From: Phycisphaerae bacterium
GTDB lineage: Bacteria; Planctomycetota; Phycisphaerae; SM23-33
Length of the DNA stretch: 36,410 bases
NCBI GenBank assembly: GCA_035686585.1
Contig: DASRZG010000048.1
Location: 1 to 36,410, forward strand
Reading direction: 5' to 3'
Positions 15,496-34,221 of this stretch are shown one piece after another (the stretch's first letter is position 1; every line of letters starts with the position of its first letter). The notes beneath the pieces were generated by a model. The model saw nothing but the letters and a program-made list of their open reading frames with translations. It searched no databases and was not told where the DNA came from. A program made the position numbers and the translations under genes.

Positions 15496-15639
15496 TCGCT
15501 TTCACCCCGACGGGACAGGGGTGGCTGCGGCGCCCCCGGAAGGCTCCCTCCCCCGCCACGTGCCCGCCCAAGACGCTGGCAAACCTCCCCCGCCTGCGCG
15601 ATGATGCTCCATCCAGGCAACGGACAACAGGAGCGCCGC

Positions 15640-18045
15640 ATGGCACGCTACGGACACTTCGACGACGACCGCCGCGAATACGTCATCACCCACCCGCTGC
15701 TGCCCCAGCCGTGGCACAACTACATGCGCAACGGCGAATACACCGGCCTGCTGACCCACACCGGCGGGGGGACGTCGTTCTGGAAGGAGCCGCTCCACCA
15801 CCGCCTGCTGAGGTACAAGTTCCACCTGACGCCCTATGACCGCCCGGGGCGGTACGTCTACATCCGCGACCAGGCCACCGGCAAGTACTGGTCCGCCACC
15901 TGGGCGCCCGTCCAGACGCCGCTGCGGCGCACCAGGTTCGAATGCCGCGTGGGCCTGGGCTACAACCGCATCACCACCCGCCACGCCGGCATCGAGGCCG
16001 AGATGCTCTACTTCGTCCCGCCGGCCGACGCGCTGGAGGTCTGGCAGCTCACCCTGACCAACCGCTCCAGCCGCCGGCGGAGGCTGCGGACCTTCTCCTA
16101 CGCCGAGTGGGCGGTGTGGGGGTTTATGCGCGACCTGCTCAACATCGACAACGCCGCCACGTGCAGCCGCTACCGCTACGAGGACGGCGTGTTCTGGCAC
16201 GAGACGCCCGACGACGTCGGCACGACGGTCGGCACGGCCACCTGGGTGTTCCCGGTGGGCTACTTCACCTCCAACGCCAAACCCGTCGGCTACGACGGCA
16301 GCCGGGACCACTTCCTGGGCCCCTGCCGCGACGAGAGCCGGCCCATCGCCGTCGAGACGGGCAAACCCTCCAACATCTGCGCCAACGGCCTGTACCCGCT
16401 CGGCGGCCTGGCCCACGACTGGGACCTGGCCCCCGGGGCCTCGCGGACCATCGTCTACCAGCTCGGCGCCGCCGACACCCGCCGGCCGCTCCGCCGGCGG
16501 ATCGCCAGGTACCGCGACCCCAAGACCGTCCAGGCCGCCTTCGCCAAACTCGCCCGCCGGTGGGACGAGCGACTGTCCGCCTTCCAGGCCCGCACGCCCG
16601 ACGGGCGGTTCGACACGGTCGTCAACACCTGGGCGCCGTACCAGGTGATCAACTTCATCTCCTCCGGCGTGGGCGTCTCGCCGGTGAGCTGGGGCGGCGG
16701 CGGCAGCATGGGCTTCCGCGACAACGGCCAGGCCGTGCTGTCGGCGGCCGTGCTGGACGCGCCGCTGGCGCGCCGGACCATCTGCACCCTCTCCCACGTG
16801 CAGCACCGCGACGGCACGCTGACCAAGAACTTCGCCCCGCCGAACTGGGACGGGGAGAGCGGCTTTCTCGACAACCAGGCGTGGTACCCCATCTTCGTCA
16901 ACGCCTACCTGAAGGAGACGGGCGAGATGGGCCTGCTGGAGGAGCAGTTCCCCTTCGTCCAGGCCTGCCCCGGCTGCGCCAGCGGCCCAGGGGGCGGCAT
17001 GCGGACGCTGCTGGACAAGATGGTGATCGCGATGGACGTCCTCTGGGCCCGCCGGGGCCCGCGCGGCCTGCCCGCGACCGGCCACGCCGACTGGAACGAC
17101 TGCCTCAACCCCCGCGACAAGAGCTCCGAGAGCGTCTTCAACGCCATGCTCTTCTGCGCCGGCTGCCGGGACCTGGAGGAGATTTTTGGCCAACTGGGCC
17201 GGGCGAGGGAGGCCCGGACGTGGGCGGGGCGCCGCAGGAAGATGGTCGCCGCCATCGAGGCCCACGCCTGGGACGGGGCGTGGTATCGCCGGATGTTCCT
17301 CGCCGACACGGGGCGGGTGCTGGGCAGCAGGAAGTCGGGCAAGTGGGGCCGGATCTTCCTCGAGCCGCAGGCCCTCGCCGGTTGGTGCGCCGCCGCCGAC
17401 CCGGTGCGGGCCCGCAGGGCGATGGACAGCGCCCGCCGCATCCTGGGCACGCCCTTCGGGCTGCGGATCCTCGACCCGCCCTGCCCGGCTTTCGATCCGC
17501 AGGTGGGCAGCCTGGGCATCCTGAACATGGGGTTCAAGGAGAACGGGGCGGTCTACAGCCACGTCAACGCCTGGTGCGTCTGCACCGAGGCCGCCCTGGG
17601 CCGGGGCGACCTGGCCTTCGAGACCTTCATGAACTTCCAGCCCATCATGCAGAACGACCGGGCGGAGGTCCGGGAGATCGAGCCGTACGCCCTCAGCGCC
17701 CAGGTCCAGGCCGCCCCCTTCCGCCAGCCCGGCCGCGGCAGGAACCCGTGGATCACCGGCTCGATCACCTGGTGCTGGGTGGCGGCGACGCAGTACATCC
17801 TGGGCATCCGCGCCGACTACGAGGGGCTGCGGATCGACCCGTGCATCCCCCGCCGCTGGGACGGCTTCACCGCCACCCGCCGCTTCCGCGGCGGCGTCTA
17901 CGAGATCACCGTCCGCAACCCCCACCGCCTGTGCAAGGGCGTCAGCCGCCTGCGGGTCAACGGCGAAGAGGTCCAAGGCTGCACCGCCCCCCTGCCGAAA
18001 CGGAAAGGCCAACGCATCCGCGTCGAGGCCGTGCTGGAGGCGTGA
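15640..18045 (+). CDS. GH94-type glycan phosphorylase (cellobiose/chitobiose/cellodextrin phosphorylase family)
   Basis: The N-terminus MARYGHFDDDRREYVITHPLLPQPWHNYM matches the conserved start of cellobiose phosphorylases (M.yG.FDD..rEYvIt.P.tP.PW.NY). The ~800-aa length is typical for the family. ATG 15640 has AGGAG 6 nt upstream; the track ORF starts at 15601. Confidence 0.8.
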   Translation: MARYGHFDDDRREYVITHPLLPQPWHNYMRNGEYTGLLTHTGGGTSFWKEPLHHRLLRYKFHLTPYDRPGRYVYIRDQATGKYWSATWAPVQTPLRRTRFECRVGLGYNRITTRHAGIEAEMLYFVPPADALEVWQLTLTNRSSRRRRLRTFSYAEWAVWGFMRDLLNIDNAATCSRYRYEDGVFWHETPDDVGTTVGTATWVFPVGYFTSNAKPVGYDGSRDHFLGPCRDESRPIAVETGKPSNICANGLYPLGGLAHDWDLAPGASRTIVYQLGAADTRRPLRRRIARYRDPKTVQAAFAKLARRWDERLSAFQARTPDGRFDTVVNTWAPYQVINFISSGVGVSPVSWGGGGSMGFRDNGQAVLSAAVLDAPLARRTICTLSHVQHRDGTLTKNFAPPNWDGESGFLDNQAWYPIFVNAYLKETGEMGLLEEQFPFVQACPGCASGPGGGMRTLLDKMVIAMDVLWARRGPRGLPATGHADWNDCLNPRDKSSESVFNAMLFCAGCRDLEEIFGQLGRAREARTWAGRRRKMVAAIEAHAWDGAWYRRMFLADTGRVLGSRKSGKWGRIFLEPQALAGWCAAADPVRARRAMDSARRILGTPFGLRILDPPCPAFDPQVGSLGILNMGFKENGAVYSHVNAWCVCTEAALGRGDLAFETFMNFQPIMQNDRAEVREIEPYALSAQVQAAPFRQPGRGRNPWITGSITWCWVAATQYILGIRADYEGLRIDPCIPRRWDGFTATRRFRGGVYEITVRNPHRLCKGVSRLRVNGEEVQGCTAPLPKRKGQRIRVEAVLEA

Positions 18046-18060
18046 AGGCCGGGTGGCACA

Positions 18061-18108
18061 CTCAAGCGCAGTGATCCGCGTGATGTCTCGCGGATCGCGG
18101 AGCTTGAG
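18061..18108 (+). terminator. two-tier hairpin just after the GH94 stop
   Basis: The outer stem is ctcaagc (18061-67) with gcttgag (18102-08). The inner stem is gatccgcg (18073-80) with cgcggatc (18089-96), with an 8-nt loop. There is no T-run. Confidence 0.4.
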
Positions 18109-18153
18109 GGTGGGAAAGATGGCTGGCCCTGCCCGGGCGCCCCCCCTTCCCTC

Positions 18154-18183
18154 ACCCTCAAGCCAAACGACGGCTTGAGGGTG
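18154..18183 (-). terminator. 12-bp hairpin overlapping the stop of the last dcw-cluster gene
   Basis: caccctcaagcc (18154-65) pairs with ggcttgagggtg (18172-83); the loop is aaacga. The stop codon of the 18158..18895 ORF lies inside the stem. There is no U-tract on the minus strand. Confidence 0.35.
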
Positions 18184-18895
18184 CCACCCGGGACGTCCCA
18201 TCCCGCTTCCCGACGACCGCCGCCAGCAGGGCGGCGACCAGGCCGACGGCGGGCCAGGCGAGCCAGGACCACCCCGGGCCGGGCAGCCAGGTGGCGGACG
18301 GCCGGGCCAGGCGGAACGCCCGCAGCACGGGGCTCAGGTCGGCCAGCCACGCCCAGCCGGGCGGGGAGTCGGCCAGCTCGGCTAGAAGATAGCAGGCGGC
18401 GGTCGTTCCGACCACCCCGATCACCGCGGCCAGCGCGGCCACACAGGCGGCGGCCCCGCCGGCCTGGAACAGCAGCCCCAGCCCCCACGCCGCCAGGGCG
18501 ACAGTGGTCAGGTGGGCCACCGACCGGATCACGTCGCCCGCGGCCGCATTGGACAGCCAGGCGGCGGTCACGTACAGGGGGACGGAGGCGACGAGCACCA
18601 GGGCGTACTCCCCGATCGTCTCGGCGAGGTACCGCCACAGCGCCCGGCCCGCCCTCGGCGCCAGCAACAGCGGGCAGAAGGCCAGGACGAACCCCGCCTG
18701 TGCGGCCAGCAGGACCGACAGCGCCGGCGGGGCGGGCATGGCCCGGCTGACGTGGGAGGGCAGGAACCACTCGGGGAACGACCCGGCGATCAGCGCCGCC
18801 AGGGACACCAGCAGCAGCGCCCAGTCCGCGCCCCGCCACAGCGGCGCAGGCCTGGCCGGCACGGCGTCCGGGTCATCTCTCGGGGTAGGTGACAT
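18158..18895 (-). CDS. polytopic membrane protein of unknown function (about 6 predicted TM helices), the last gene of the dcw operon
   Basis: Hydrophobic stretches include WALLLVSLAALIAGSF, LSVLLAAQAGFVLAFCPLLLA, YALVLVASVPLYVTAAWL, TTVALAAWGLGLLF, ACVAALAAVIGVVGTTAACYLLA and WLAWPAVGLVAALLAAVV. ATG 18895 overlaps the ftsQ-like stop (18873) by 23 nt, which suggests translational coupling. I recognised no family motif. Confidence 0.6.
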   Translation of the reverse strand: MSPTPRDDPDAVPARPAPLWRGADWALLLVSLAALIAGSFPEWFLPSHVSRAMPAPPALSVLLAAQAGFVLAFCPLLLAPRAGRALWRYLAETIGEYALVLVASVPLYVTAAWLSNAAAGDVIRSVAHLTTVALAAWGLGLLFQAGGAAACVAALAAVIGVVGTTAACYLLAELADSPPGWAWLADLSPVLRAFRLARPSATWLPGPGWSWLAWPAVGLVAALLAAVVGKRDGTSRVAPSSRRLA

Positions 18896-19820
18896 GGAGC
18901 TCGTCGAAGCGGAGGTCCAGGCTCGCGGCGGACGGGCCCGTCAGCCGCCGCCCGTTCTGCTGGTAGTACTGGTCGAGGTAGGCCATCCTCCGCTCGAGGC
19001 TGACGGCATAGTCGTCGCCGACGGGCAGCCGGCCGAAGATGATCTCGCACTTCGGCCCCCACCCCATCTGGGCGTCCACGGTGATCTCCGGCTTCCGCGG
19101 ATCCCTCCTGCCGTCGTGGTTCTGCACGTCGATGACGGTGATCTCGTCGACGTAGGGCTTGCTCCAGAACAGTTTGAGCACCTTCAGCCCGTCGGCGAGG
19201 TCGGAGGCCTCCCACACCTGGCCCGCGGCCGGGGGCTCCCCGGCGACGTTGTGGATCTGCTTGAAGGCCGCCACGTCCAGCAGGACGCCGTCGATCGTCG
19301 GCAGGACCACGCCGTCGATCGTGACGGGAATGAGCTGCATCGCCGGCTTGGCGGAGGAGCGAACGAGCGCCCGCGGCCTGTGGTACTGGGCATACACGGC
19401 CACGTCGCCGGTGGGACCCCGCACCACCCGGTCGACCTGGGCGATCCAGGGGTTGGCCGTCGCCTTAGCCCACACGTCGCGGGCGATGCCCTCCTCGAAG
19501 ACCGAGCGGGGATTGCCTTTGCCATCGAAACCGGCCGGCTGAATCTCGGAGGTGATCACGTACGTCAGCTCCCGCGGCATCCAGTCCGGCCTGTTGGCCA
19601 GCCGGATCCGCGCCAGGCGTTCCCGGCACGCCGGCGAGGCGTGAAGCCGGGCCTTCTGGCCGTACAGGGCGGCGAGCAGGGCGATTCCGATCGCGCCCGC
19701 CACGGCCGCTCGGACGATCCTCAGCGACAGCCCCCGCCCGTTCGAATCCGTCGAGCGGCGCCTGGGAGGCTTCTCGGGCGTCTGGGGCTCTTTGCCGTTT
19801 TTGGAGGTCTTCCTGGCCAC
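18873..19820 (-). CDS. ftsQ: FtsQ-like bitopic cell-division protein (assigned by position and architecture)
   Basis: It lies immediately downstream of ddl, the canonical ftsQ position. It has a basic N-tail (MARKTSKNGKEPQTPEKPPRRR), a single TM helix (IVRAAVAGAIGIALLAALYG) and a ~250-aa extracytoplasmic domain. The start is GTG. I could not verify a diagnostic sequence motif by eye. Confidence 0.5.
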   Translation of the reverse strand: MARKTSKNGKEPQTPEKPPRRRSTDSNGRGLSLRIVRAAVAGAIGIALLAALYGQKARLHASPACRERLARIRLANRPDWMPRELTYVITSEIQPAGFDGKGNPRSVFEEGIARDVWAKATANPWIAQVDRVVRGPTGDVAVYAQYHRPRALVRSSAKPAMQLIPVTIDGVVLPTIDGVLLDVAAFKQIHNVAGEPPAAGQVWEASDLADGLKVLKLFWSKPYVDEITVIDVQNHDGRRDPRKPEITVDAQMGWGPKCEIIFGRLPVGDDYAVSLERRMAYLDQYYQQNGRRLTGPSAASLDLRFDELHVTYPER

Positions 19821-19827
19821 GTCCGTG

Positions 19828-20808
19828 TCACCTCCCGGCCCGGTGCAGGGCCATCCGCACGAGGCGGTCGCACAATGTCGGGAAGTCCACCCCGGCCGCG
19901 GCGGCGGCCTTGGGGACCAGCGAGTGGCTGGTGAAGCCGGGGATGGTGTTGGTCTCCAGCACCCACGGCGTTCCGTCGGAGGTGAGGAGGAAGTCCGTCC
20001 GGCTCAGGTCGCGGCAGCCCAGGGCGGCGTGGGCCTTGGAGCCCGCCTCGCTGACGCACCGGGCCACGTCCGCCGGCAGGTCGGCGGGGACGATGTACTC
20101 GGTCGCGTCGTCGATGTACTTGGCCTGGTAGTCGTAGAATTCCCGTTCCGGGCGGATCTCGACGACGGGCAGGGCGCGGTCGCCGAGCACGCCGACGGTC
20201 AGCTCCCGCCCGGCGATGAAGCACTCGACCATCACCCGCCCGTACCGGTGGAGCAGGTCGGCGACGGCGGCGTCCCGGGCGGGCAGGTCGTGGGCGATGG
20301 TGATGTCCACGCTCGAGCCGGAGTCGACGGGCTTGACCACGCAGGGGGGGCTGAACCGGCGCAGGGACGCCCGCCAGTGATCGGCCGACTCGTCGGCCTC
20401 GACGACCGTCCAGTCGGGCGTCAGCAGCCCGGCCCGCTGATAGACGCGCTTGGCGTCGTTCTTGTCCATCGCCATCGCCGAGGCGTCCGGGCCCGAGCCG
20501 ACGTACGGCAGCCGCCGCCGCTCGCAGAGCCGCTGGACCTGCCCGTCCTCGCCAAACGGCCCGTGCAGGGCGATGAAGACCACGTCCACGCCCTCGCGGT
20601 CGAGGGCGGAGGTGTCGGCGGGGGTGATGTCGAGGGACTGGACGGCGTGCCCGGCCCGCACCAGCGCCTCGGCCACCGCGGCGCCGGAGGCGAGGCTCAC
20701 CTCGCGCTCGCTGCCGGGCCCGCCGGTCAGGACCGTGATCTCCAGCGGTCTGACCGCCGATCCGGCCGCCGCCGACGCCGCCCCGTCAACCGCCGTCCGT
20801 CCGTCCAT
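19828..20808 (-). CDS. ddl: D-alanine--D-alanine ligase
   Basis: LTGGPGSEREVSLASG and FIALHGPFGEDGQVQRLCERRRLPYVGSG are the typical Ddl N-domain motifs. An ATP-grasp C-terminus (VLETNTIPGFT) is present. The position between murB and ftsQ also fits. Confidence 0.9.
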   Translation of the reverse strand: MDGRTAVDGAASAAAGSAVRPLEITVLTGGPGSEREVSLASGAAVAEALVRAGHAVQSLDITPADTSALDREGVDVVFIALHGPFGEDGQVQRLCERRRLPYVGSGPDASAMAMDKNDAKRVYQRAGLLTPDWTVVEADESADHWRASLRRFSPPCVVKPVDSGSSVDITIAHDLPARDAAVADLLHRYGRVMVECFIAGRELTVGVLGDRALPVVEIRPEREFYDYQAKYIDDATEYIVPADLPADVARCVSEAGSKAHAALGCRDLSRTDFLLTSDGTPWVLETNTIPGFTSHSLVPKAAAAAGVDFPTLCDRLVRMALHRAGR

Positions 20809-20811
20809 GGC

Positions 20812-21690
20812 TCACCACACTTCGAGTTCCAGCTCCAGGTAGATCTCGTTCCGCTTGTAGACGGCCTCGCGAATCTCGTTGATCAGCTTCAGCACGTCCG
20901 ACGCGCGGGCGTTCGTGTCGGCGACGATGAAGTTGGCGTGCTTCTGGGAGACCTTCGCCCCGCCGATGGTCTTGCCCTTCAGGCCCGCCTTGTCGATCAG
21001 CGCCCCGGCCGAGACGCCGCGGGGGTTCTTGAACACGCACCCGGCGTTGCCGTGACCGAGGGGCTGGGTGTTCTTCTTGTAGATCCAGATCTGCTTGACC
21101 TGGTTGAGGATTCGGTGCGGGTCGTCCTCAGCCGCCCGGAGCTCGGCGTCGAGGATGACCTTGGCGGCGATGTTGGTGGAGCGGTAGCCGAAGGCCAGCT
21201 CGCCGCGCATGCGGGTGAAGGGCACGCCGTCGACGTCCATCAGCGTGACCGACTCGATCACGTTGCCGATGTCGCCGAACGCCCCGCCGGCGTTCATCCG
21301 GATCGCCCCGCCGACGGTGCCGGGGATGCCCGTCAGGCACTCCAGCCCGCTGACGCCGTCGCGGACGCAGCGCAGCACCAGCTTGCTCAGGTCGGCGGCG
21401 GCGCCGGCCTTGATCCGTTCCGGGCCCATCTCCACCCGGCCGAACTCCTCCCCCGCCAGCTTGATCACCGCCCCGAGGACGCCCGAGTCGTCCACCAGCA
21501 GGTTCGCCCCGCCCCCCAGGACGTGCACGGGCACCTCGTTGTCCTGGCAGCGGCGGAGGACCTCCGCGAGCTGCTCGATACTCGTCGGCTCGATGAGGTA
21601 CTGCGCCGGCCCGCCGATGCCCAGCCAGGTGTACGGGGCCAGGGGGACATCCCGCTTAACGATCTGTTCCAAGTCTTCGAACAATGTCAT
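20812..21690 (-). CDS. murB: UDP-N-acetylenolpyruvoylglucosamine reductase
   Basis: YTWLGIGGPAQYLIEP is the FAD-binding N-terminus, and NAGCVFKNP is the MurB signature. The gene overlaps the murC 3' end by 35 nt. Confidence 0.9.
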   Translation of the reverse strand: MTLFEDLEQIVKRDVPLAPYTWLGIGGPAQYLIEPTSIEQLAEVLRRCQDNEVPVHVLGGGANLLVDDSGVLGAVIKLAGEEFGRVEMGPERIKAGAAADLSKLVLRCVRDGVSGLECLTGIPGTVGGAIRMNAGGAFGDIGNVIESVTLMDVDGVPFTRMRGELAFGYRSTNIAAKVILDAELRAAEDDPHRILNQVKQIWIYKKNTQPLGHGNAGCVFKNPRGVSAGALIDKAGLKGKTIGGAKVSQKHANFIVADTNARASDVLKLINEIREAVYKRNEIYLELELEVW

Positions 21691-23098
21691 CGGCGACTTC
21701 CCAGATGTTTCCCGCGCCCATCGTGACCACCAGGTCGCCCGGCGTCAACGCCCCGGACAGGTGCTCGACGATGTCGGCGAATTCTTTCAGGTACACCGCC
21801 CTGCCGCCGCCCAGCCCGATCTGGGCGACCAGGTCGGCGGAGCTGATGTGGTCCCGCTCGCGCTCGCTGTCGCGGACGAAGTAGATGTCCGGCACGATCA
21901 CCTCGTCGGCCATGCTGAAGCTGCGGGCGAAGTCCTTCAGCAGGAACCGCGTCCGCGAATGCTGATGCGGCTGGAAGACGCACCACAGCCGCCGCGGGCG
22001 GTACTGGTCGCGGATCGCCCGCAGCGTCGCCTGGATCTCGGTGGGGTGGTGGGCGTAGTCGTCCAGGACGGTGATCCCGCCCGGCTGGCCCTTCAGCGTC
22101 ATCCGCCGGTGGGCGCCCTCGTACCCGCCCAGCCCGGCGGCGATCTGATCGCCCGTCAGGCCCGCGTGATGCAGCAGGGCCGCCGCCGCCAGGGCGTTGT
22201 ACACCTGGTGCAGCCCCGCCAGCTTCAGCTCCGCCCGGCAGAACTCCCTGCCGTCCAGCAGCACGTCGAAGGCGTATCGGCCTTGGCGGCTGTTGAGATT
22301 GGCCGCCAGCCACCGGCTGCGTGGGCTCAGGCCGAACGTCTGCACCTCGCAGGCGGGCTCGCGGACGGCCTTGATCGCCTCCCGGTCGTCGCCGTTGACC
22401 ACCAGCACCCCGTGCGGGGGCACCTTGGCCGCGAACGCCCGGAACGCCTCCACGATCGCCTCCAGGTCCTGGAAGCAGTCCAAGTGGTCGTCGTCGATGT
22501 TCAGGATCGCCGCCAGCGTCGGCTGGAGGTTCAGGAACGACCGGTCGTACTCGCACGCCTCCACCACGAAGTGCGGGCCCTCCCCCACCCCGCTGGGACC
22601 GCCCAACTGCCCCACCGTCGCGCCCACCACGTACGACGGGCTCTTGCCCGCCGACACCAGCGAATACGCCACCATGCCCGTCGTCGTGCTCTTGCCGTGC
22701 GTCCCGGCCACCGCCACGCCGCAGCGGTCGCTCATCAGCCTCCCCAGCATCTGGCTGTACTTGAGCACCTCGCAGCCCCGCGCCCGCGCGGCCAGCAGCT
22801 CCGGGTTCGATTCGTGAATGGCGGCCGAATGCACCACCAGGTCAAGCTGGTCCGGGAGATTCTCCGCCTGCTGGCCGACGTGAACGCGGGCGCCGGCCTC
22901 GGTGAGCCGGCCCAGGGCGGCCGAGGGGACGCTGTCCGAGCCGCTGATCACCGCCCCCCGGCCGATCAGCAGCTCCGCCAACGCCCGCATCCCGCAGCCG
23001 CCGATGCCGATCAGATGCACCGGCCGCCCGGCGTACGCGCAGCCGGCGCCGCCCACCTTGACGGATTGACCTTCCTCCCTGACCATCGGTTCGCCCAT
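21656..23098 (-). CDS. murC: UDP-N-acetylmuramate--L-alanine ligase
   Basis: HLIGIGGCGMRALAELL and the P-loop VAVAGTHGKSTTT are present. I prefer ATG 23098 (GGAGG 7 nt upstream) over the track's TTG at 23125. Confidence 0.9.
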   Translation of the reverse strand: MGEPMVREEGQSVKVGGAGCAYAGRPVHLIGIGGCGMRALAELLIGRGAVISGSDSVPSAALGRLTEAGARVHVGQQAENLPDQLDLVVHSAAIHESNPELLAARARGCEVLKYSQMLGRLMSDRCGVAVAGTHGKSTTTGMVAYSLVSAGKSPSYVVGATVGQLGGPSGVGEGPHFVVEACEYDRSFLNLQPTLAAILNIDDDHLDCFQDLEAIVEAFRAFAAKVPPHGVLVVNGDDREAIKAVREPACEVQTFGLSPRSRWLAANLNSRQGRYAFDVLLDGREFCRAELKLAGLHQVYNALAAAALLHHAGLTGDQIAAGLGGYEGAHRRMTLKGQPGGITVLDDYAHHPTEIQATLRAIRDQYRPRRLWCVFQPHQHSRTRFLLKDFARSFSMADEVIVPDIYFVRDSERERDHISSADLVAQIGLGGGRAVYLKEFADIVEHLSGALTPGDLVVTMGAGNIWEVADDIVRRLGTDR

Positions 23099-23220
23099 GG
23101 TATGACCTCCGTCGACAACAGTCAAACGCTGTCGCGGACGGGAAAAGGGAACTCCATTATTCTTATCGCCCGACGCGGGCGAATCCCTTTACCCGGACCG
23201 GGGCGAACCGGGAACCGGAA

Positions 23221-23282
23221 CGTTTAGCGGTCGTCGGTACGACGACCTCCAAGAAGGCGGTCGTTCCGACCGCCGCTAAACG
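23221..23282 (-). promoter_or_regulatory. long imperfect hairpin in the 195-220 nt murG-murC spacer
   Basis: cgtttagcgg (23221-30) pairs perfectly with ccgctaaacg (23273-82), and the inner stems are imperfect. The flanking sequence 23130-23220 is visibly less GC-rich (ggaaaagggaactccattattcttatcg). Confidence 0.3.
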
Positions 23283-23320
23283 ATGACCGGTACGCACGCG
23301 GTCGAATTCCTCGGGGCGCG

Positions 23321-24427
23321 TCATGGTCCCGCCATCCACCGCGCGATCTCCGCGGCGGCGTCCGCCCGCACCCTCCCGGCGGCCGCTTGCGACATCGCCT
23401 CCAACCTCGACGGATCGGCCATGATCGCCAGCAGGGACGCCCGCAGCAACACGGCGTTGGCGGCGGGGTCGGTCCGGTCCTCGACCACCTCGACCGCCCC
23501 GGCCTCGGCGGCCTCGGCCACGTTCAGGTACTGCTGGCGGTCGCGGTGGTAGGGATACGGCATGACCACCGCCGGGGTGCCGGTGGCGGCCAGCTCGCCG
23601 GCCGTCGACGCCCCGCCCCGGCACAGGGCCAGGTCGGCGGCGGCGAAGGCCAGGTCCATCCGGTCGCAGAAGCCCACCACGGCATGGCCGATGGCGGCGC
23701 CGGCCCATTGCTCCCGGACCTCGTCGAGCTTCTCGGGCCCGGCCACGTGCAGCACCTGCCACGAATCGGCCAGGGAACCCAGGTCCGCGGTCAGCGCGGC
23801 GACCGCCCGGTTGACGTTGGCGGCCCCTTGGCTTCCGGCCATGACCAGCAGCGTCCGGCGGTCGGCCCGCAGGCCAAAGGCCGCCCGGGCCTCGGACGGA
23901 TCTCCCGCCAGCAACTCCCGCCGGACCAGCGGACCGACGACGCGGACCTTTTTGGCACACTTGCCGTACGCTTGCGCGGTCCGGGCGTATTGGGCGAAGA
24001 TAACAAGTACCTTACGCGCCAGCAGGCGGTTGGCGATGCCGGGCACGGCGTCGATGCTGAGCAGGGCGGTGCGGATGCCCGCGCGGGCGGCGCGGACGGT
24101 CACGGGGGCGGCGGCGAATCCGCCAAGTCCCAGCACGGCCGCGGGTTGCAGGTCGCGCAGGAGGTCGCGGGCCAGCCGCCGCGACGCCCGCCAGGACCGC
24201 CCGAACCGCCACCACCCCGCCGGCCCCCGCGGCATGGGGCGGACGGGCTGGGCAACGATCGCATACGGATGCGGCGACAGCACCCGCCGGTCGATGGCCC
24301 GATCCGAGCAGGCGAAGACGACCCGCGCATCCGGCCGCAGCGCGGTCAGCTCCTCCGCCACCGCCACCGCCGGGCACAGGTGCCCGCCCGTCCCCCCGCC
24401 CGCAAAGATGTACACCGGTCCACTCAT
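23321..24427 (-). CDS. murG: undecaprenyl-PP-MurNAc-pentapeptide UDP-GlcNAc transferase
   Basis: The N-terminal IFAGGGTGGHLCPAVAVAEEL is the MurG G-loop. The position between ftsW and murC also fits. Confidence 0.9.
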   Translation of the reverse strand: MSGPVYIFAGGGTGGHLCPAVAVAEELTALRPDARVVFACSDRAIDRRVLSPHPYAIVAQPVRPMPRGPAGWWRFGRSWRASRRLARDLLRDLQPAAVLGLGGFAAAPVTVRAARAGIRTALLSIDAVPGIANRLLARKVLVIFAQYARTAQAYGKCAKKVRVVGPLVRRELLAGDPSEARAAFGLRADRRTLLVMAGSQGAANVNRAVAALTADLGSLADSWQVLHVAGPEKLDEVREQWAGAAIGHAVVGFCDRMDLAFAAADLALCRGGASTAGELAATGTPAVVMPYPYHRDRQQYLNVAEAAEAGAVEVVEDRTDPAANAVLLRASLLAIMADPSRLEAMSQAAAGRVRADAAAEIARWMAGP

Positions 24428-24520
24428 GCCGCCGTTCCTGTCTCACCGCGGAGGACGCGGAGGACGCGGAGGTTTTGCTTTGGTCCGTTTCTCCTCTGCG
24501 ATCTCCGCGCCCTCAGCGGT

Positions 24521-25732
24521 TTATTCGGAGATCGGTAGGTCCGCCGGGCGCCGGGCGGTCACGGAGACGATCATCGCCGCCGCCGCGGCCATGGCCAGCA
24601 GGCCGGATCCGCCGGCGGAGATAAACGGCAGCGAGATGCCCGTCGGCGGCAGCCACTTGACGTTGACGGCGATGTGCATCGCCGCCTGCAGGCCGATCAG
24701 GAACCCCAGCCCGCCCGCCAGCAGAGACCCGAAGCGGTCCGGCGACCGCATCACCGCCCGGCGGACCAGCCACAGCCAGATCAGCAGCAGCCCGATCACC
24801 AGCACCACGCCCATCACGCCCAGCTCCTCGCACAGGGGCGAAAAGATGAAGTCGGTGCTGTCCTCGGGCAGGTAATCGTACTTGGCCACGCCGCGCCCCA
24901 GCCCGGCCGGGTCCGCCCCGGAGGCGATCGAGATCAGCGCCTGCCGCGGCTGGTAGGAGGCCGGACGGGTGCTGGTCAGGGGCTCGGCGAGGGCGAGCAT
25001 CCGTTCCCACCGATGCGGCGTGCGAAAGACGAACAGGTAGAACGCCGCCGCCCCCCCGCCGGCCGGCAGCCAGAAGTGATGCAGCGGCACGCCCGCCATC
25101 CACATCAGCGCCGCCGCCGCCAGGGCGATGATCACGGCCGTGCCGAAGTCCTGCGTCACCACCAGCCCGCAGGCCACCCCCACCAGGGCGATCGCCGGCA
25201 GGAACGTCCGCCGGAAGGAGCGGATCTCAGGCCCGCGCCGCGACAGAAAGACCGCCAGGGCGATCAGCACCGCGAACTTCAGCACCTCCGAGGGCTGGAA
25301 ACCCACCGGCCCGTACCGCAGCCACCGCAGGCGCCCGCCGACCGCCTGCCCCAGGACCAGGACGCACACGGCGCCGGCCAGTGCCACGGCCAGCAGGCCC
25401 CAGGTCAGCCACAGGCGGCGATTGAAGACGGTGTAGTCCAGGCGCCACAGCGTCAGCAGGATGACCGCGGCCGCGGCGGCGAAGATCCCCTGCCGGATGT
25501 CGCGCCGGTAGTACCAGCTTACCGTCCGGGGCGGCTTTTCGGCAGCGGGAGCGGCAGCGGCGCCGTCGGCCTGGGTCTGCGAGGGAGGGCGCCTGTCGCC
25601 GCCGACCGTCGAGGCCACCATCACCACGCCCAGCGCGATCAGCGAGAGCGCCACCAGGATCAGCGCCTGCCCGGTGGGGTTGCGCCCCAGGGGCACGCGC
25701 CGGAGCCGTCCGCCGTCCATGGCGTTGTCCAT
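24521..25732 (-). CDS. ftsW: SEDS-family peptidoglycan glycosyltransferase FtsW
   Basis: It is a polytopic membrane protein. The conserved SEDS C-terminal region is present (PEDSTDFIFSPLCEELGVMGV..., GISLPFISAGGSGLL). The position upstream of murG fits. GAGGA lies 7 nt upstream of ATG 25732. Confidence 0.85.
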   Translation of the reverse strand: MDNAMDGGRLRRVPLGRNPTGQALILVALSLIALGVVMVASTVGGDRRPPSQTQADGAAAAPAAEKPPRTVSWYYRRDIRQGIFAAAAAVILLTLWRLDYTVFNRRLWLTWGLLAVALAGAVCVLVLGQAVGGRLRWLRYGPVGFQPSEVLKFAVLIALAVFLSRRGPEIRSFRRTFLPAIALVGVACGLVVTQDFGTAVIIALAAAALMWMAGVPLHHFWLPAGGGAAAFYLFVFRTPHRWERMLALAEPLTSTRPASYQPRQALISIASGADPAGLGRGVAKYDYLPEDSTDFIFSPLCEELGVMGVVLVIGLLLIWLWLVRRAVMRSPDRFGSLLAGGLGFLIGLQAAMHIAVNVKWLPPTGISLPFISAGGSGLLAMAAAAAMIVSVTARRPADLPISE

Positions 25733-25775
25733 GCATTCATCCTCAGTTTCAGCCTGTCATCCCGGGGGGCGGGAA

Positions 25776-25879
25776 AACACGAATTACACGGATTACAGCG
25801 AATTACACGAAACGAATGATGTTGTTTCTCAACAAATGCTGTCTTCGTGTAATTCGTCTTAATTCGTGCAATTCGTGTT
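25776..25879. repeat. AT-rich imperfect inverted repeat (36-nt arms, 32-nt centre); each arm is built from three ~10-nt GAATTACACG-like direct repeats
   Basis: The left arm is aacacgaattacacggattacagcgaattacacgaa (25776-25811). The right arm is ttcgtgtaattcgtcttaattcgtgcaattcgtgtt (25844-25879). By hand alignment 31 of 36 positions are complementary. The element lies between the mraY stop (25908) and the ftsW start (25732). Confidence 0.75.
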
Positions 25880-25907
25880 CCCAGGCCATCCGAACCAACA
25901 GCGCGCA

Positions 25908-27341
25908 TCAGCGCAGCGTCAGCGTCGCCACCGCCACCGCGGCGAACATCAGTCCCAGCAGCCAGAACCGCACCACCACCTTCGACTCGGCCCATCCGAG
26001 CAGGTGGAAGTGATGGTGGATCGGCGAGCAGCGGAAGATCCTCTGCCCGCCGGTCATCTTGAAGCAGCCCACCTGGAGGATCACGCTGACCGCCTCCATC
26101 ACGAAGATGCCCCCGGCGATCAGCAGCATCATCTCCTGGCGGGTGACCACGGCCACGTACCCGATCAGCCCCCCCAGCGGCAGCGACCCGGTGTCGCCCA
26201 TGAACACCTGCGCCGGCAGGCAGTTGAACCACAGGAACCCCAGGCACGCCCCGATCATGGCCGCGCACAGCACGGTCAGCTCGGCCGAGGAGGGAACGAA
26301 CGGCAGGTGGAACTGGCACGCCCACTGCGCCACGCCCGTTACCCACGTCAGCAGAAGGAACACCGCCGCCACGATCAGCATGCACCCCCCCGCCAGCCCG
26401 TCCATGCCGTCGGTGAGGTTCACCGCGTTGGACGAGCCGACCATCACCAGCACCGTCACGATCACGAACGCCGCCACCGGCAGCGCGAACGGGCCCGCGT
26501 CGATCGGCAGGAAGAAGTACTGCATCGCGCTGCCCTGCCCGCGGGCGAGCATCTCCTTGAGGTTCGCCCCGATCGGCCAGTCCGCGTCCGGCCAGAAGCA
26601 ACTGTGCTTGCCGTGATGGTGGATGAAGAACGACAGCAGCACCGCCAGGGCGATCTGGAAGAGGACCTTCTGGTAGCTCCTGAGCCCGTCTCGCGTGGGC
26701 TTGGCGTCGGCGCCGGCGGCACGCGCCAGCCGGGCGGCACGCAGCTTCAGCCAGTCGTCCACCGCGCCCAGCCCGGCCAGCCAGATCACCACCATGAAGG
26801 CCATGCGGACGTAGAAGTTGACCATGTCGGCGAACAGGTACGTGGCCACCAGGATCGCCAGGACGATCAGGATCCCGCCCATGGTGGGCGTGGCGGACTT
26901 GTGTCGGGTCAGCTCGTTCAGCTCGGCATGGTCGAACTCGGGGCGGTCTCCCAGCTTCATCCGGACCAGCCAGCGGATCGTCCGCGGGCTCAGCATCGCC
27001 ACCACCAGGAAGCTCGTCACGGCGGCGCACACCATCCGCAGCGTCAGCTTCTGCCCCCCGAACAGGGGCCAGATCGACCACCGCACCAGCAGCACGGCCC
27101 CCAGGGCGCCCAGGGCCCAGGCGGCGGCGGTGGCGGGTTTTCTCCAACGGACCGGCCAGGGGGTCGTCCGCGGGCTCAGCAGCAGCCCCATCAGGATGCT
27201 CGTCACCGCAGCGCACACGCTCGGCGGCAGCTTCTGCCCCCCGAACAGGGGCCAGATCGACCACCGCACCAGCAGCACGGCCGCCAGGGCGCCCAGGGCC
27301 CAGGCGGCGGCGGTGGCGAGTTTTCTCCAACGGTTCAGCAC
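25908..27341 (-). CDS. mraY: phospho-N-acetylmuramoyl-pentapeptide transferase, with a duplicated N-terminal membrane segment
   Basis: ATPTMGGILIV, NAVNLTDGMDGLAGG, VFMGDTGSLPLGGL and PIHHHF are MraY signatures. I place the start at GTG 27341, which overlaps the murF stop (GTGCTGA). The track ORF extends to 27941, but that stretch lies inside murF and I reject it. Confidence 0.85.
   Translation of the reverse strand: MLNRWRKLATAAAWALGALAAVLLVRWSIWPLFGGQKLPPSVCAAVTSILMGLLLSPRTTPWPVRWRKPATAAAWALGALGAVLLVRWSIWPLFGGQKLTLRMVCAAVTSFLVVAMLSPRTIRWLVRMKLGDRPEFDHAELNELTRHKSATPTMGGILIVLAILVATYLFADMVNFYVRMAFMVVIWLAGLGAVDDWLKLRAARLARAAGADAKPTRDGLRSYQKVLFQIALAVLLSFFIHHHGKHSCFWPDADWPIGANLKEMLARGQGSAMQYFFLPIDAGPFALPVAAFVIVTVLVMVGSSNAVNLTDGMDGLAGGCMLIVAAVFLLLTWVTGVAQWACQFHLPFVPSSAELTVLCAAMIGACLGFLWFNCLPAQVFMGDTGSLPLGGLIGYVAVVTRQEMMLLIAGGIFVMEAVSVILQVGCFKMTGGQRIFRCSPIHHHFHLLGWAESKVVVRFWLLGLMFAAVAVATLTLR
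26979..27333. repeat. tandem direct duplication (2 copies, period 183-186 nt) inside the mraY 5' coding region
   Basis: The copies are 26979-27150 and 27165-27333. The 106-nt cores (27045-27150 and 27228-27333) match at 104 of 106 positions by hand alignment. The remaining ~65 nt of each copy is much more diverged and carries a 3-nt indel. Confidence 0.85.
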
Positions 27342-28744
27342 GTCCGCTCCTCGACGGCGGCGCCGTCGAACGCCGCTCGAATGGGCTCCACGAGCCGCTC
27401 CATCGCCATGCCGCGCGAGCCCTTCAGCAGGACGACGTCCCCGCCGGCCAGCAGCGCCGGCAGGGCGCCGCGGGCGGCCTCGACCGACGCGATCCGCTCC
27501 GTGCGGACCGTCCCGGCCTCGGCGGCGCCGGCGGCGAGGAGCCCGCCCAGCTCTCCCACGCCCACCACCACGTCCAGCGGGGTCCGCGCCAAGTCGCGCC
27601 CGGCCTGGAAGTGAAGCCGCTCGCTGTCCGGGCCCAGCTCCAGCATGTCGCCGGCGACGAGCACCTTCCGCCGCCCGGCGAAGGACGCCAGCGACTCGGC
27701 CGCCGCCGCCAGCGAGGCGGGGTTGGCGTTGTAGGCGTCGTTGATGATGGTGACGCTGCCGGCGTGGATCGGCTCCAGGCGCATGCCCGCGCCGGCGAAG
27801 TCGGCCAGGGCGGCGGCGGCTTCGTCGACGCCGAACCCGAACCGCTGCGCCACGGCCATCGCGGCCAGGGCGTTCAGGGCGTTGTGCCGCCCGGGCGCGG
27901 GCAGGGCCGTGCGGGTCCGCCCGTTGACCTCCAACCGGCACCCGCCGGGCGCCGGCTCATAGGCGGTCAGACGCAGGTGGGCGTCGCCGGCGGCGCCGAA
28001 GCGGATCAGGCTCACGCCGCCGTACGCCCGCAGCGCCCGGGCCAGCTCGGGGCTGTCCGCCCAGACGACCGCGGCGCCGTTGGGCACAAGAGCGCCCAGC
28101 AGCGACGCCTTCTCGATCGCCACGTGCTCCAGGTCGATCAGCTTCTCCAGGTGGGCCGGGCCCACCGAGGTGATCACCGCCACGTTCGGGCGGGCGATCC
28201 GCGCCAGCGAGGCGATCTCGCCCGGGGCGTTGGAGCCCAGCTCGCAGATGACGTAGTCGTCGTCCGGCGCCACCTCAAACAGCGTCAGCGGCACGCCGAC
28301 GGCGTTGTTGTAGCTTCCGGGGCTCGCCCGGCCCCGGAGGCGGCGCGACAGGATGTGATCGATCATCCGCTTGACCGTGGTCTTGCCGTTGGAGCCGGTC
28401 ACCGCCACCACGGTCGCGGCCATCTGGCCGCGGCAGTGGCTCGCCAGCTCGCCCAGCGCCTCGGTCGTGTCCGCCACGCCGATCACCCCCCCGGCGAACC
28501 GCTTCAGCAAGTCCTGCTCCAGCGGGCTCTTCAGGTTTACCACGGCCGCGACGCAGCCGCCGGCGGCGGCGGCCGCCAGGAAATCGTGCCCGTCGAAGGA
28601 ATCGCCCTTCAGCGCGACGAACAGGCTCCCGCCCCGGACGCGCCGGGAATCGGTGCAGACTCCCTCCACGGTCACGGTCCGGGCGGGCCAGCGCCACCGG
28701 CCCCGCACCGCCAGTCGGATCTCTTCCGGGACGAGCTTCCTCAT
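27335..28744 (-). CDS. murF: UDP-N-acetylmuramoyl-tripeptide--D-alanyl-D-alanine ligase
   Basis: The Mur ligase P-loop VAVTGSNGKTT is present. The length (469 aa) and the position between murE and mraY also fit. Confidence 0.9.
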   Translation of the reverse strand: MRKLVPEEIRLAVRGRWRWPARTVTVEGVCTDSRRVRGGSLFVALKGDSFDGHDFLAAAAAGGCVAAVVNLKSPLEQDLLKRFAGGVIGVADTTEALGELASHCRGQMAATVVAVTGSNGKTTVKRMIDHILSRRLRGRASPGSYNNAVGVPLTLFEVAPDDDYVICELGSNAPGEIASLARIARPNVAVITSVGPAHLEKLIDLEHVAIEKASLLGALVPNGAAVVWADSPELARALRAYGGVSLIRFGAAGDAHLRLTAYEPAPGGCRLEVNGRTRTALPAPGRHNALNALAAMAVAQRFGFGVDEAAAALADFAGAGMRLEPIHAGSVTIINDAYNANPASLAAAAESLASFAGRRKVLVAGDMLELGPDSERLHFQAGRDLARTPLDVVVGVGELGGLLAAGAAEAGTVRTERIASVEAARGALPALLAGGDVVLLKGSRGMAMERLVEPIRAAFDGAAVEERTC

Positions 28745-28759
28745 GGTCCCTTTTCTATC

Positions 28760-30337
28760 TCAACTTCGCCTCTGGCGCAAGAGTTCTTCGGCCGTTTCCC
28801 GATCGTCGAAGTGCACCCGCCGGCTGCCGAGGATCTGGTAGTCCTCGTGTCCCTTGCCGGCGATCAGGACGACGTCGCCGCGCTCGGCCTCCTCCAGCGC
28901 CATCGCGATCGCCGCCCGCCGGTCCGGCTCGACGGCCACCTTCGGCATCACCTGCGGGTCGAACCCGCTGAGGATCTCGTCGATGATGGCGTCGGGGTCC
29001 TCGGATCGCGGGTTGTCGGAGGTCACGATCACCCGGTCCGCCCCCGCCCCCGCCACCCGGGCCATGACCGGACGCTTGGTCCGGTCCCGGTCGCCCCCGC
29101 AGCCGAAGACCAGGATCAGCCTGCCCGCCGCCTTGACCGGCGCCAGCGCCTCCAGCACGTTGGCCAGGGCGTCGTCGGTGTGCGCGTAGTCCACCAGGAC
29201 GGCGAACGGCGCGTCGCCGCCGACGCGCTGGAGCCGGCCCGGAACGGCGGCCTCTTCGGCGAGGGCGGCCGCGGACGCTTCCACGTCCACGCCCACCGCG
29301 GTCGCGGCCGCGATCGCCGCCAGGCAGTTGTAGACGTTGTGCCGGCCGATCAGCGGCGTCGTCACCGGCGTCTGCCGCTCGCCGAACCGGACCACGAACC
29401 GGCTTCCGTCCACGCCCGTCGCGGTCATCCGCGCGGACATCTGCGCCTCGCCCGACAGGCCGTACCACAGCACGGCGGCCTCGATCCCCTCGGCCATCAG
29501 GCCGGCGCGGGCGTCGTCGCGGTTGAGCACGGCCGTGGCGGACGGGGCGAGCGAGGCGAACAGTCGCCGCTTGGCGGCGGCGTATTCGTCGAATGTATGG
29601 TGGTAGTCCAGGTGGTCGCGGGTGAGGTTGGTGAACACGCCCACGGCGAAGTCGATGCCGTCGGCGCGATGCTGGTCGAGGGCGTGGGAGGAGACCTCCA
29701 TGACCGCGTGGGTCGCCCCGGCGGCGACGGCCTCGGCCATCAGCTCGGCCAGCTCGACCGGGCTGGGGGTGGTCGTGGAGGCGGGCACCGACCGGGCGAT
29801 GGTGTCGTAGGCGACGGTGCCCAGCATCGCCGGCGCGGCCCCGGCCGCACGGAGGATGTGCCGCAGCAGGTAGGCGAAGGTGGTCTTGCCGTTGGTGCCC
29901 GTCACGGCGACGGTGGTCAGGCGCCGCGCGGGCCAGCCGCAGATCGCCTGCGCCAGAGGCCCGACCGCCCGGCGGGTGTCTCCGACGACGGCATGGGGGA
30001 TGTTGGGGGGCACGGCCGTGGGATCTTCGCACACCACGGCCGAGGCCCCCGCCGCCACGGCATGGGCAATATAGGCGTGGCCGTCGGTCGCCGTGCCCCG
30101 AACGGCCACAAAGCAGTCACCTGCCTGCGCCCGGCGCGAGTCCAGGATGACCCGACGGACGTCCGCATCGCCCACGACGACCGGCCCGCCGGCATCGCCG
30201 GGGCCTTGCGGCAGGGCTTCGGTGCACAATCGCGTCAGTCGCATCCTCGTTCGCCGGCACCACAGGAGGGTAGATATCGCCGCCCGGGTTAGCGACACTC
30301 CAAGTGCCGCCAGAGCCCGGGCCGACGCTGGGATCAT
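28760..30337 (-). CDS. murE: UDP-N-acetylmuramoyl-L-alanyl-D-glutamate--2,6-diaminopimelate ligase
   Basis: The P-loop VAVTGTNGKTT is present. TSDNPRSEDP contains the DNPR motif associated with meso-DAP specificity. ATG 30337 lies 3 nt after the ftsI stop. An alternative internal ATG at 30244 (MRLTRLC...) is possible. Confidence 0.9.
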   Translation of the reverse strand: MIPASARALAALGVSLTRAAISTLLWCRRTRMRLTRLCTEALPQGPGDAGGPVVVGDADVRRVILDSRRAQAGDCFVAVRGTATDGHAYIAHAVAAGASAVVCEDPTAVPPNIPHAVVGDTRRAVGPLAQAICGWPARRLTTVAVTGTNGKTTFAYLLRHILRAAGAAPAMLGTVAYDTIARSVPASTTTPSPVELAELMAEAVAAGATHAVMEVSSHALDQHRADGIDFAVGVFTNLTRDHLDYHHTFDEYAAAKRRLFASLAPSATAVLNRDDARAGLMAEGIEAAVLWYGLSGEAQMSARMTATGVDGSRFVVRFGERQTPVTTPLIGRHNVYNCLAAIAAATAVGVDVEASAAALAEEAAVPGRLQRVGGDAPFAVLVDYAHTDDALANVLEALAPVKAAGRLILVFGCGGDRDRTKRPVMARVAGAGADRVIVTSDNPRSEDPDAIIDEILSGFDPQVMPKVAVEPDRRAAIAMALEEAERGDVVLIAGKGHEDYQILGSRRVHFDDRETAEELLRQRRS

Positions 30338-30340
30338 ATC

Positions 30341-32143: not shown

Positions 32144-32161
32144 GCCGGGCCCCGGGTGCGG

Positions 32162-32431: not shown

Positions 32432-32446
32432 GCCGGGGGCCTTCGG

Positions 32447-33262: not shown

Positions 33263-33317
33263 CGTTCCAAGCTCCGTCCCAGTCCGCCGCGGGGCGCGTT
33301 GGCGGCCCGCGCGGCGA

Positions 33318-34211: not shown

Positions 34212-34221
34212 GATGCCGGCC

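What the first reader, a model, noticed from the sequence alone, without database searches (positions are those of the whole stretch)
18158..19820. dcw operon ends after ftsQ with a translationally coupled polytopic membrane protein instead of ftsA-ftsZ
Downstream of ddl and the ftsQ-like gene, the canonical ftsA and ftsZ are absent. Instead a 245-aa protein with about 6 TM helices overlaps the ftsQ-like stop by 23 nt. The operon then meets a convergent GH94 gene with hairpins in between. FtsZ-less division with retained FtsW, FtsI and FtsQ is established for Planctomycetes, so the absence itself is expected if the taxonomic inference is right. The tightly coupled, unrecognisable membrane protein in the ftsA/ftsZ slot is a candidate lineage-specific divisome component.
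Basis: partly seen in the sequence, partly recalled or inferred. Interest (0 to 1): 0.6.

Follow-up and report, generated by a model that had tools for sequence, protein, structure and literature searches.

The report
FtsQ-coupled unknown membrane protein ending dcw
In this soil planctomycete the cell-wall/division operon ends with a divergent ftsQ and then an overlapping gene for a six-helix membrane protein of an undescribed family; the pair is conserved across related genomes, which makes the protein a credible but untested partner of FtsQ in bacteria that divide without FtsZ.

Summary
On the minus strand the dcw cluster runs mraZ-rsmH-LysM-ftsL-like-ftsI-murE-murF-mraY-ftsW-murG-murC-murB-ddl. 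It then has a 315-aa gene (18873-19820) and a 245-aa gene (18158-18895) that overlap by 23 nt. Hairpins and a convergent GH94 gene follow.

The 315-aa protein matches no Pfam or NCBIfam model. Its AlphaFold model (pLDDT 81) matches only FtsQ structures (E about 1e-7), so it is a divergent FtsQ.

The 245-aa protein ("X") has six TM helices and a predicted N-in/C-in topology. It belongs to no known family: the weak ABC-2 hit occurs in 1 of 104 relatives. X founds a family of about 180 clusters (50% identity).

In 31 of 35 distinct related loci, down to about 25% identity, X sits directly after the divergent ftsQ. In most the genes overlap by 14-29 nt, and the ATG often lies in ftsQ's conserved C-terminal His-Val codons. 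One divergent subclade carries X elsewhere.

No ftsA or ftsZ lies in the window, and no FtsZ in 375 kb of window plus related loci. Genome-wide absence could not be tested.

Best reading: X is an FtsQ-associated membrane subunit of an FtsZ-independent septal peptidoglycan machine. This rests on gene context only.

The parts
18158..18895 (-). Gene X: 245-aa, 6-TM inner-membrane protein of an undescribed family; terminal gene of the dcw operon
   Evidence: ORF. GC3 0.92. Six TM helices. Family of about 180 clusters at 50% identity. No Pfam, NCBIfam or PDB relative.
18873..19820 (-). Divergent ftsQ: basic cytoplasmic tail, one TM (about residues 33-61), POTRA domain plus beta domain
   Evidence: AF2 pLDDT 81, pTM 0.71. 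The top 8 PDB fold matches are all FtsQ, E 9e-8 to 4e-6, prob 1.0. No Pfam or NCBIfam hit. Sits after ddl in all relatives.
18873..18895 (-). 23-nt overlap of ftsQ 3' end and gene X 5' end; the ATG of X is embedded in the His-Val codons of FtsQ's conserved RFDELHV motif
   Evidence: Sequence. Where a single ATG start could be placed, it overlaps ftsQ by 17-29 nt in 8 related loci, and a GTG overlaps by 14 nt in L022; in L006, L011 and L019, as in the window, it sits in the same His codon. Gene-caller overlaps of 17 nt in L001 and L017.
18153..18183 (.). Perfect 12-bp inverted repeat (CACCCTCAAGCC / GGCTTGAGGGTG) spanning the stop codon of X
18057..18112 (.). 27-nt-arm inverted repeat in the 112-nt spacer between the convergent genes; likely a bidirectional terminator or REP-like element
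   Evidence: fold z = -5.5; motif CACCCTCAAGC occurs four times locally
15601..18045 (+). Convergent GH94 glycoside phosphorylase gene; marks the end of the operon
   Evidence: Pfam Glyco_hydro_94 E 1.7e-78 and GH94 supersandwich domain E 1.9e-68
19828..35035 (-). Upstream dcw genes. mraZ 34556-35035; rsmH 33318-34211; LysM protein 32447-33262; FtsL-like 89-aa ORF 32162-32431; ftsI 30341-32143; murE 28760-30337; murF 27335-28744; mraY about 25908-27332; ftsW 24521-25732; murG 23321-24427; murC 21656-23125; murB 20812-21690; ddl 19828-20808. No murD.
   Evidence: Pfam scans; translations

Best explanation
Gene X encodes the founding member of an undescribed family of 6-TM inner-membrane proteins. 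So far the family is seen only in contigs labelled Planctomycetota or unlabelled. X is the last gene of the dcw operon. It is probably made together with a highly divergent FtsQ through overlapping stop and start codons (translational coupling).

The most likely role is a membrane-embedded partner of FtsQ. FtsQ would sit alongside the FtsL-like protein, FtsW and FtsI encoded upstream. X would help assemble, anchor or regulate the septal peptidoglycan-synthesis complex in a lineage that has lost FtsZ, FtsA and FtsB.

Shown here:
- The gene is real and conserved.
- It has six TM helices.
- It belongs to no known family.
- Its upstream neighbour is a structural FtsQ.
- The pair, and in most loci the overlap, is conserved over deep divergence.

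Inferred:
- Co-translation.
- N-in/C-in topology, with the conserved residues facing the periplasm.
- Physical interaction with FtsQ.
- Any role in division.
For: - Synteny: ddl -> FtsQ-like -> X in all 15 close loci, where X is 31-54% identical.
- Deeper sampling: the same pair in four further subclades sampled down to about 25% identity (L019, L020, L022, L023).
- Metagenome loci: the pair in 18 of 19 additional loci of the largest subclade.
- Downstream genes differ (TPR, RnfD, His_Phos_1, MotA/ExbB). The conserved unit therefore ends at X.
- The ATG of X lies 14-29 nt inside ftsQ in most loci. In the window and in L006, L011 and L019 it sits within the codons of FtsQ's conserved terminal motif.
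- X evolves about as fast as FtsQ (31-54% versus 28-47% identity) and much faster than Ddl or MurB (58-80%) in the same loci.
- FtsQ identity: the top 8 fold matches are all FtsQ, E about 1e-7, prob 1.0.
- Family-wide conserved residues cluster on the predicted periplasmic side, where FtsQ's domains lie: G38, P41, P57, D116, D121, R124, P189, P205, P207, W209.
- No ftsA or ftsZ among the window's ORFs scanned against Pfam. No FtsZ signature or phmmer hit in 375 kb of window plus related loci. The literature says Planctomycetes lack FtsZ and that Phycisphaerae and Planctomycetales also lack FtsA and FtsB (PMC6952346, PMC12283558).
- A metatranscriptome contig, 100% identical, lies inside X at 18551-18697. 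This is weak evidence.
Against: - There is no experimental or structural evidence of an FtsQ-X interaction.
- The AF2 model of X is poor (pLDDT 65.5), so fold comparison is uninformative.
- One divergent subclade (P0169, P0130; L014-L016) has X away from dcw, after an M16 peptidase and a 114-aa 3-TM protein.
- Three further cases (L021, L027, P0124) lack a detectable upstream FtsQ. All three have little upstream sequence.
- In P. limnophila, ftsQ and most dcw genes are dispensable (PMC10632474). A dcw location does not prove a division role in this phylum.
- Operon-terminal genes can be passengers.
Confidence: 0.5

Rival explanations
1. X is a small transporter or flippase-like permease, for example an ABC-2-like permease or a carrier of lipid-linked peptidoglycan precursors. 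It would be encoded in dcw because it serves wall synthesis, not because it binds FtsQ.
For: - Six TM helices and a size of about 230-250 aa.
- Conserved polar residues inside the membrane: Q66, E96, Y169.
- A sub-threshold Pfam ABC2_membrane hit, E 0.003.
- The two best TM-scores in the PDB fold search are the ABC-2 permeases KpsM (0.33) and Wzm (0.32).
- murD is missing from the cluster, and no murJ was found among the window ORFs scanned.
Against: - The ABC2_membrane hit appears in only 1 of 104 family members.
- Family profiles find no ABC-2 permease or other membrane transporter in PDB sequences.
- The fold matches are not significant (E 0.28 and 4.8), and the model is poor.
- No ATPase gene is adjacent in any locus.
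- No Amj, MurJ or DedA-type family match.
Confidence: 0.17
2. X has a general membrane function unrelated to division or wall synthesis. It rides at the 3' end of the dcw operon for expression reasons.
For: - A subclade has X in a non-dcw context.
- dcw genes are dispensable in P. limnophila (PMC10632474).
- X is always the last gene, the position most tolerant of passengers.
Against: - The pairing with ftsQ persists to about 25% identity and across 49-74% GC, while everything downstream changes.
- The start codon is built into ftsQ's coding sequence in most loci. A passenger would not be expected to be kept this way over such distances.
Confidence: 0.25
3. The 245-aa ORF is a chance open frame in high-GC DNA and not a gene.
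For: At 74% GC, long ORFs occur in several frames over this region.
Against: - GC3 is 0.92 in this frame and 0.61-0.66 in the rival frames.
- 151 homologous cluster representatives with E<=1e-10, of matching length.
- Homologues occur in genomes from 49% to 74% GC.
Confidence: 0.01

Closest known systems
FtsQ/DivIB (E. coli FtsQ, PDB 2vh1, 6h9o, 8hhf), for the upstream gene
   Same: - Bitopic N-in membrane protein with a periplasmic POTRA domain plus beta domain.
- Encoded right after ddl in the dcw cluster.
- Fold match E about 1e-7, TM-score normalised to target 0.5-0.6.
   Different: - Too divergent for the Pfam or NCBIfam models; 12-15% identity to solved FtsQ structures.
- Its usual partner FtsB is reported lost in this part of the phylum (PMC12283558).
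- It is followed by X instead of ftsA-ftsZ.
Lineage-specific divisome membrane proteins encoded in or near dcw clusters in other phyla, such as actinobacterial CrgA and YlmG/YggT-type proteins downstream of ftsZ (recalled from general knowledge, not tested here)
   Same: Small polytopic membrane proteins with restricted phyletic range. They are implicated in division mainly through dcw linkage and interaction with core divisome proteins.
   Different: - No sequence relationship was detected.
- X has six TM helices and is coupled to ftsQ, not to ftsZ.
- X occurs in an FtsZ-less lineage.
ABC-2 type permeases (KpsM, Wzm; Pfam PF01061)
   Same: About 250 aa with six TM helices. They give the highest, but non-significant, fold scores and one sub-threshold Pfam hit.
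   Different: - The hit is not reproduced in the family: 1 of 104 members.
- No partner ATPase gene is present.
- No profile-level match to ABC-2 permeases of known structure.
Chlamydial FtsZ-less divisome (FtsK, MreB/RodZ, divergent FtsQ and FtsL; PMC4643143, PMC11975371)
   Same: An FtsZ-less PVC lineage that keeps very divergent FtsQ and FtsL homologues which standard annotation misses.
   Different: None of the searched papers reports a homologue of X there. The chlamydial organiser proposed is FtsK, not a 6-TM protein.

Membership tests
FtsQ/DivIB (upstream gene 18873-19820) | Sequence match to the Pfam POTRA_1/FtsQ models or the NCBIfam FtsQ models | tested here: not met
   No family at E<=0.1 (Pfam) or E<=1 (NCBIfam) for the window protein. 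None in 9 relatives. A profile search against PDB sequences gave nothing.
FtsQ/DivIB (upstream gene 18873-19820) | Fold: POTRA (beta-alpha-alpha-beta-beta) followed by the FtsQ beta domain | tested here: met
   AF2 model pLDDT 81. The eight best PDB matches are all FtsQ, E 9e-8 to 4e-6, prob 1.0, about 250 aligned columns. BamA/Omp85 POTRA domains come next.
FtsQ/DivIB (upstream gene 18873-19820) | Bitopic topology with a short cytoplasmic N-terminus and a single TM | tested here: met
   Basic disordered residues 1-31, then helix 33-61, in the model and in the alignment.
FtsQ/DivIB (upstream gene 18873-19820) | Position in the dcw cluster immediately after ddl | tested here: met
   Window, close related loci, L022 and the metagenome loci long enough to include ddl.
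FtsQ/DivIB (upstream gene 18873-19820) | Binds FtsB/FtsL and localises to the septum | not testable with these tools
   Needs experiments or multimer modelling. An FtsL-like 89-aa ORF exists at 32162-32431.
ABC-2 type permease (gene X) | Pfam PF01061 at or above the gathering score, reproducible among homologues | tested here: not met
   17.5 bits against a cut-off of 26.9. Matched in 1 of 8 and 1 of 104 family members.
ABC-2 type permease (gene X) | Adjacent ABC ATPase gene | tested here: not met
   None next to X in the window or in any locus with called genes.
ABC-2 type permease (gene X) | Fold similarity to KpsM, Wzm or TarG | tested here: inconclusive
   Best hit is KpsM, E 0.28, TM 0.33. 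The model is poor at pLDDT 65.5.
Known polytopic division or wall proteins (SEDS FtsW/RodA, FtsX, MurJ, Amj, MreD, DedA, PAP2, CDP-alcohol transferases) (gene X) | Any Pfam or NCBIfam match, in the query or recurrent among homologues | tested here: not met
   No such family among hits at E<=1 for 104 members. PDB profile searches were empty.
dcw operon membership (gene X) | Same strand, no intergenic gap or promoter, conserved synteny with dcw genes | tested here: met
   23-nt overlap with ftsQ. No sigma-70-like promoter in 17800-20000. Pair conserved in 31 of 35 distinct related loci. Co-transcription itself was not shown.

The most novel reading that the evidence does not exclude
X is the missing organiser or anchor of the FtsZ-independent divisome in peptidoglycan-containing Planctomycetota. 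On this reading it is a 6-TM protein that binds the periplasmic part of FtsQ, taking the place of FtsB and/or the FtsA-type membrane tether. It would nucleate or activate the FtsW-FtsI septal synthase.
Probability: 0.15. Interest if true: 0.85.

Novelty: new variant of a known kind. Interest (0 to 1): 0.55.

Why it matters
How planctomycetes divide without FtsZ is an acknowledged open question. PMC6952346 asks whether 'a different main protein' drives division in Phycisphaerae and anammox bacteria. A protein family with no known relatives is locked to ftsQ by an overlapping start codon across deep divergence. That gives a concrete, testable candidate to delete, localise and test for binding to FtsQ, FtsL, FtsW and FtsI.

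The finding also shows that the ftsQ of these organisms escapes standard annotation models. This affects presence/absence tables of division genes.

If X turns out to be a passenger or a transporter, the result is a new but ordinary membrane protein family.

Tried and rejected
- **ABC-2 permease.** The lone Pfam hit is not reproduced in the family. Treated as chance.
- **Profile searches against PDB sequences.** Profiles from 8 and from 104 sequences gave nothing relevant.
- **Foldseek of the X model against PDB.** No hit with E<=0.001. The model is too poor to interpret.
- **Internal 3+3 TM repeat.** Tested with hhalign, N half against C half. None found.
- **NCBIfam scan of 104 members.** No recurrent family.
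- **Broad locus scans.** The search for related loci with the broad alignments A4 and A5 failed because no stretch was conserved enough. The narrower A6 worked.
- **Cluster-member look-up for names or taxonomy.** Gave only 'Planctomycetota bacterium', so class-level placement is unresolved. MAG labels say Planctomycetales or Planctomycetaceae. No class-level evidence was obtained.
- **Literature.** Four full-text searches and six papers read found no description of a conserved membrane protein after ftsQ in Planctomycetes.
- **FtsZ search.** No hit. This covers only the fragments held, not whole genomes.

Full report
**What is there.**

The minus strand of the window carries a compact dcw cluster:

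| Gene | Coordinates |
|---|---|
| mraZ | 34556-35035 |
| rsmH | 33318-34211 |
| bitopic LysM protein | 32447-33262 |
| 89-aa FtsL-like ORF (TM plus coiled coil) | 32162-32431 |
| ftsI | 30341-32143 |
| murE | 28760-30337 |
| murF | 27335-28744 |
| mraY | about 25908-27332 |
| ftsW | 24521-25732 |
| murG | 23321-24427 |
| murC | 21656-23125 |
| murB | 20812-21690 |
| ddl | 19828-20808 |

Seven nucleotides after ddl a 315-aa ORF starts (18873-19820). A 245-aa ORF (18158-18895) follows. Its ATG lies 23 nt inside the 315-aa gene.

The operon then meets a convergent GH94 gene (15601-18045, Pfam E 1.7e-78). The spacer is 112 nt. A perfect 12-bp stem spans the stop codon of the 245-aa gene, and a 27-nt-arm inverted repeat sits in the spacer. 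The folding z-score is -5.5.

**The genes are real.**

GC3 is 0.92 in the called frame of the 245-aa ORF. It is 0.61-0.66 in the overlapping alternative ORFs.

A profile search of 1.84 billion cluster representatives finds 180 proteins at E<=1e-3 and 151 at E<=1e-10. Nearly all are 210-280 aa. Their loci range from 49% to 74% GC.

A soil metatranscriptome contig lies inside the gene at 100% identity. This is weak evidence of expression.

**The upstream gene is a divergent FtsQ.**

It matches no Pfam or NCBIfam model, and neither do its relatives. A profile of nine relatives finds nothing in PDB sequences.

Its AlphaFold model is good (pLDDT 81, pTM 0.71). It shows a disordered basic N-terminus, one TM helix, a POTRA-like beta-alpha-alpha-beta-beta unit and a second beta domain.

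The eight best PDB fold matches are all FtsQ (E 9e-8 to 4e-6, probability 1.0). POTRA domains of BamA/Omp85 come next.

With its position after ddl, this meets the structural and positional definition of FtsQ. It fails the sequence-model definition.

**The 245-aa protein (X) belongs to no described family.**

- The only notable Pfam hit is ABC2_membrane (E 0.003, below the gathering score). It recurs in 1 of 8 and 1 of 104 homologues, so it is chance.
- NCBIfam gives nothing recurrent.
- Profiles of 8 or 104 sequences find no relative in PDB sequences.
- The AlphaFold model, made from only eight sequences, is poor (pLDDT 65.5).
- Its fold search has no hit with E<=0.001. The best hits are two ABC-2 permeases at TM about 0.33.
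- There is no internal 3+3 repeat.
- No neighbouring ATPase gene appears in any locus.

**Topology and conserved residues of X.**

Family-averaged hydropathy gives six TM segments: 26-40, 58-78, 94-114, 124-143, 151-170 and 210-227.

The arginine-rich 79-92 loop and the C-terminal tail suggest an N-in/C-in topology.

On that topology the most conserved residues lie at the periplasmic face: G38, P41, P57, L59, D116, D121, R124, P189, P205, P207 and W209. A few lie inside the membrane: Q66, P75, E96, P106, P165 and Y169. This topology is an inference.

**Conservation of the pair.**

- All 15 close loci (X 31-54% identical) have ddl -> FtsQ-like -> X.
- Sampling other branches of the family finds the FtsQ-like gene directly upstream in L019, L020, L022 (with murG-murC-murB-ddl) and L023.
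- The pair is also present in 18 of 19 further metagenome loci.
- After removing duplicates, 31 of 35 related loci with DNA show the pair.
- Genes downstream of X differ from locus to locus, so the conserved unit ends at X.
- In most loci the ATG of X lies 14-29 nt inside ftsQ.
- In the window and in L006, L011 and L019 the ATG is made of the His codon (CAT) plus the next G of FtsQ's conserved terminal motif RFD(E)LHV.
- A few branches have gaps of 4-123 nt instead.
- X and FtsQ diverge at similar, fast rates (31-54% and 28-47% identity). Ddl and MurB in the same loci are 58-80% identical.

**Exceptions.**

One divergent subclade (P0169, P0130; L014-L016; about 28% identity; 49-53% GC) has X after an M16 peptidase and a 114-aa three-TM protein. 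A GT1-like protein follows X there.

L021, L027 and P0124 have too little upstream sequence to decide.

**ftsA and ftsZ.**

Neither is in the window. No FtsZ signature or phmmer hit occurs in 375 kb of window plus 42 loci.

The source genome cannot be searched here.

Related MAG records are labelled Planctomycetota, Planctomycetales or Planctomycetaceae. Published work states that ftsZ is absent from all Planctomycetes genomes (PMC6952346). It also states that Phycisphaerae and Planctomycetales have lost ftsZ, ftsA and ftsB while keeping the rest of dcw (PMC12283558).

The absence is therefore expected and not new.

**Interpretation.**

The deep, start-codon-level coupling of X to ftsQ argues for a shared function and probably matched synthesis. 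The likeliest reading is that X is an FtsQ-associated membrane subunit of the septal peptidoglycan machine (confidence about 0.5).

The rival readings are:

- a wall-related small transporter (about 0.17);
- an unrelated passenger at the operon end (about 0.25);
- a spurious ORF (about 0.01).

Two points call for caution. In P. limnophila, ftsQ and most dcw genes are dispensable (PMC10632474). One X subclade is unlinked from dcw.

**Novelty.**

Four full-text literature searches found no description of this family or of an ftsQ-coupled membrane protein in Planctomycetes.

Lineage-specific dcw-encoded membrane proteins are a known kind of thing. This one has no detectable relatives and sits in an FtsZ-less lineage, so I rate it a new variant of a known kind. 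It has moderate-to-good interest as a testable lead.

Noticed in passing
window 26962-27333: A 183-bp tandem duplication (2.0 copies, 90% match) sits at the 5' end of mraY. It duplicates about 61 aa that include the first TM segment (WRK..AWALGAL..LVRWSIWPLFGGQKL).
   Followed up: partly
window 25732-27335; also L001, L004, L005, L009-L013: murD is missing between mraY and ftsW in this dcw cluster and in the relatives whose loci span that interval. It must be encoded elsewhere or replaced.
   Followed up: partly
window 32162-32431 (-) and 32447-33262 (-): The slot between rsmH and ftsI holds two genes. One is a bitopic protein with two LysM domains. The other is an 89-aa ORF with an N-terminal TM and a coiled-coil-like stretch; it looks like a divergent FtsL/FtsB but has no Pfam hit.
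   Followed up: partly
window 5146-15429 (+): A giant 3427-aa ORF whose only Pfam signal is a weak C-terminal Matrixin-like (zinc metalloprotease HExxH) hit. Probably a giant secreted or surface protein.
   Followed up: no
window 18057-18183: The 11-mer CACCCTCAAGC occurs four times, in both orientations, within 130 nt at the operon end. It forms nested hairpins and is found nowhere else in the window except one 1-mismatch copy at 15003. It may be a REP-like element or a terminator.
   Followed up: partly
L014:9652-9996 and L016:801-1145: In the subclade where X is not next to ftsQ, a 114-aa three-TM protein (PQ-loop/SemiSWEET-like by eye, no Pfam hit) precedes it. A roughly 580-aa GT1-like protein follows it, and an M16 peptidase lies upstream.
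   Followed up: partly
window 40-1320 (+): A 426-aa ORF with no Pfam match even at E 0.5. Whether it is coding was not checked.
   Followed up: no
window 18862-18895: A gene caller in the public collection started X at a GTG 11 codons downstream (234 aa, P0001). That start removes the overlap with ftsQ. The conserved N-terminus in relatives favours the upstream ATG.
   Followed up: yes
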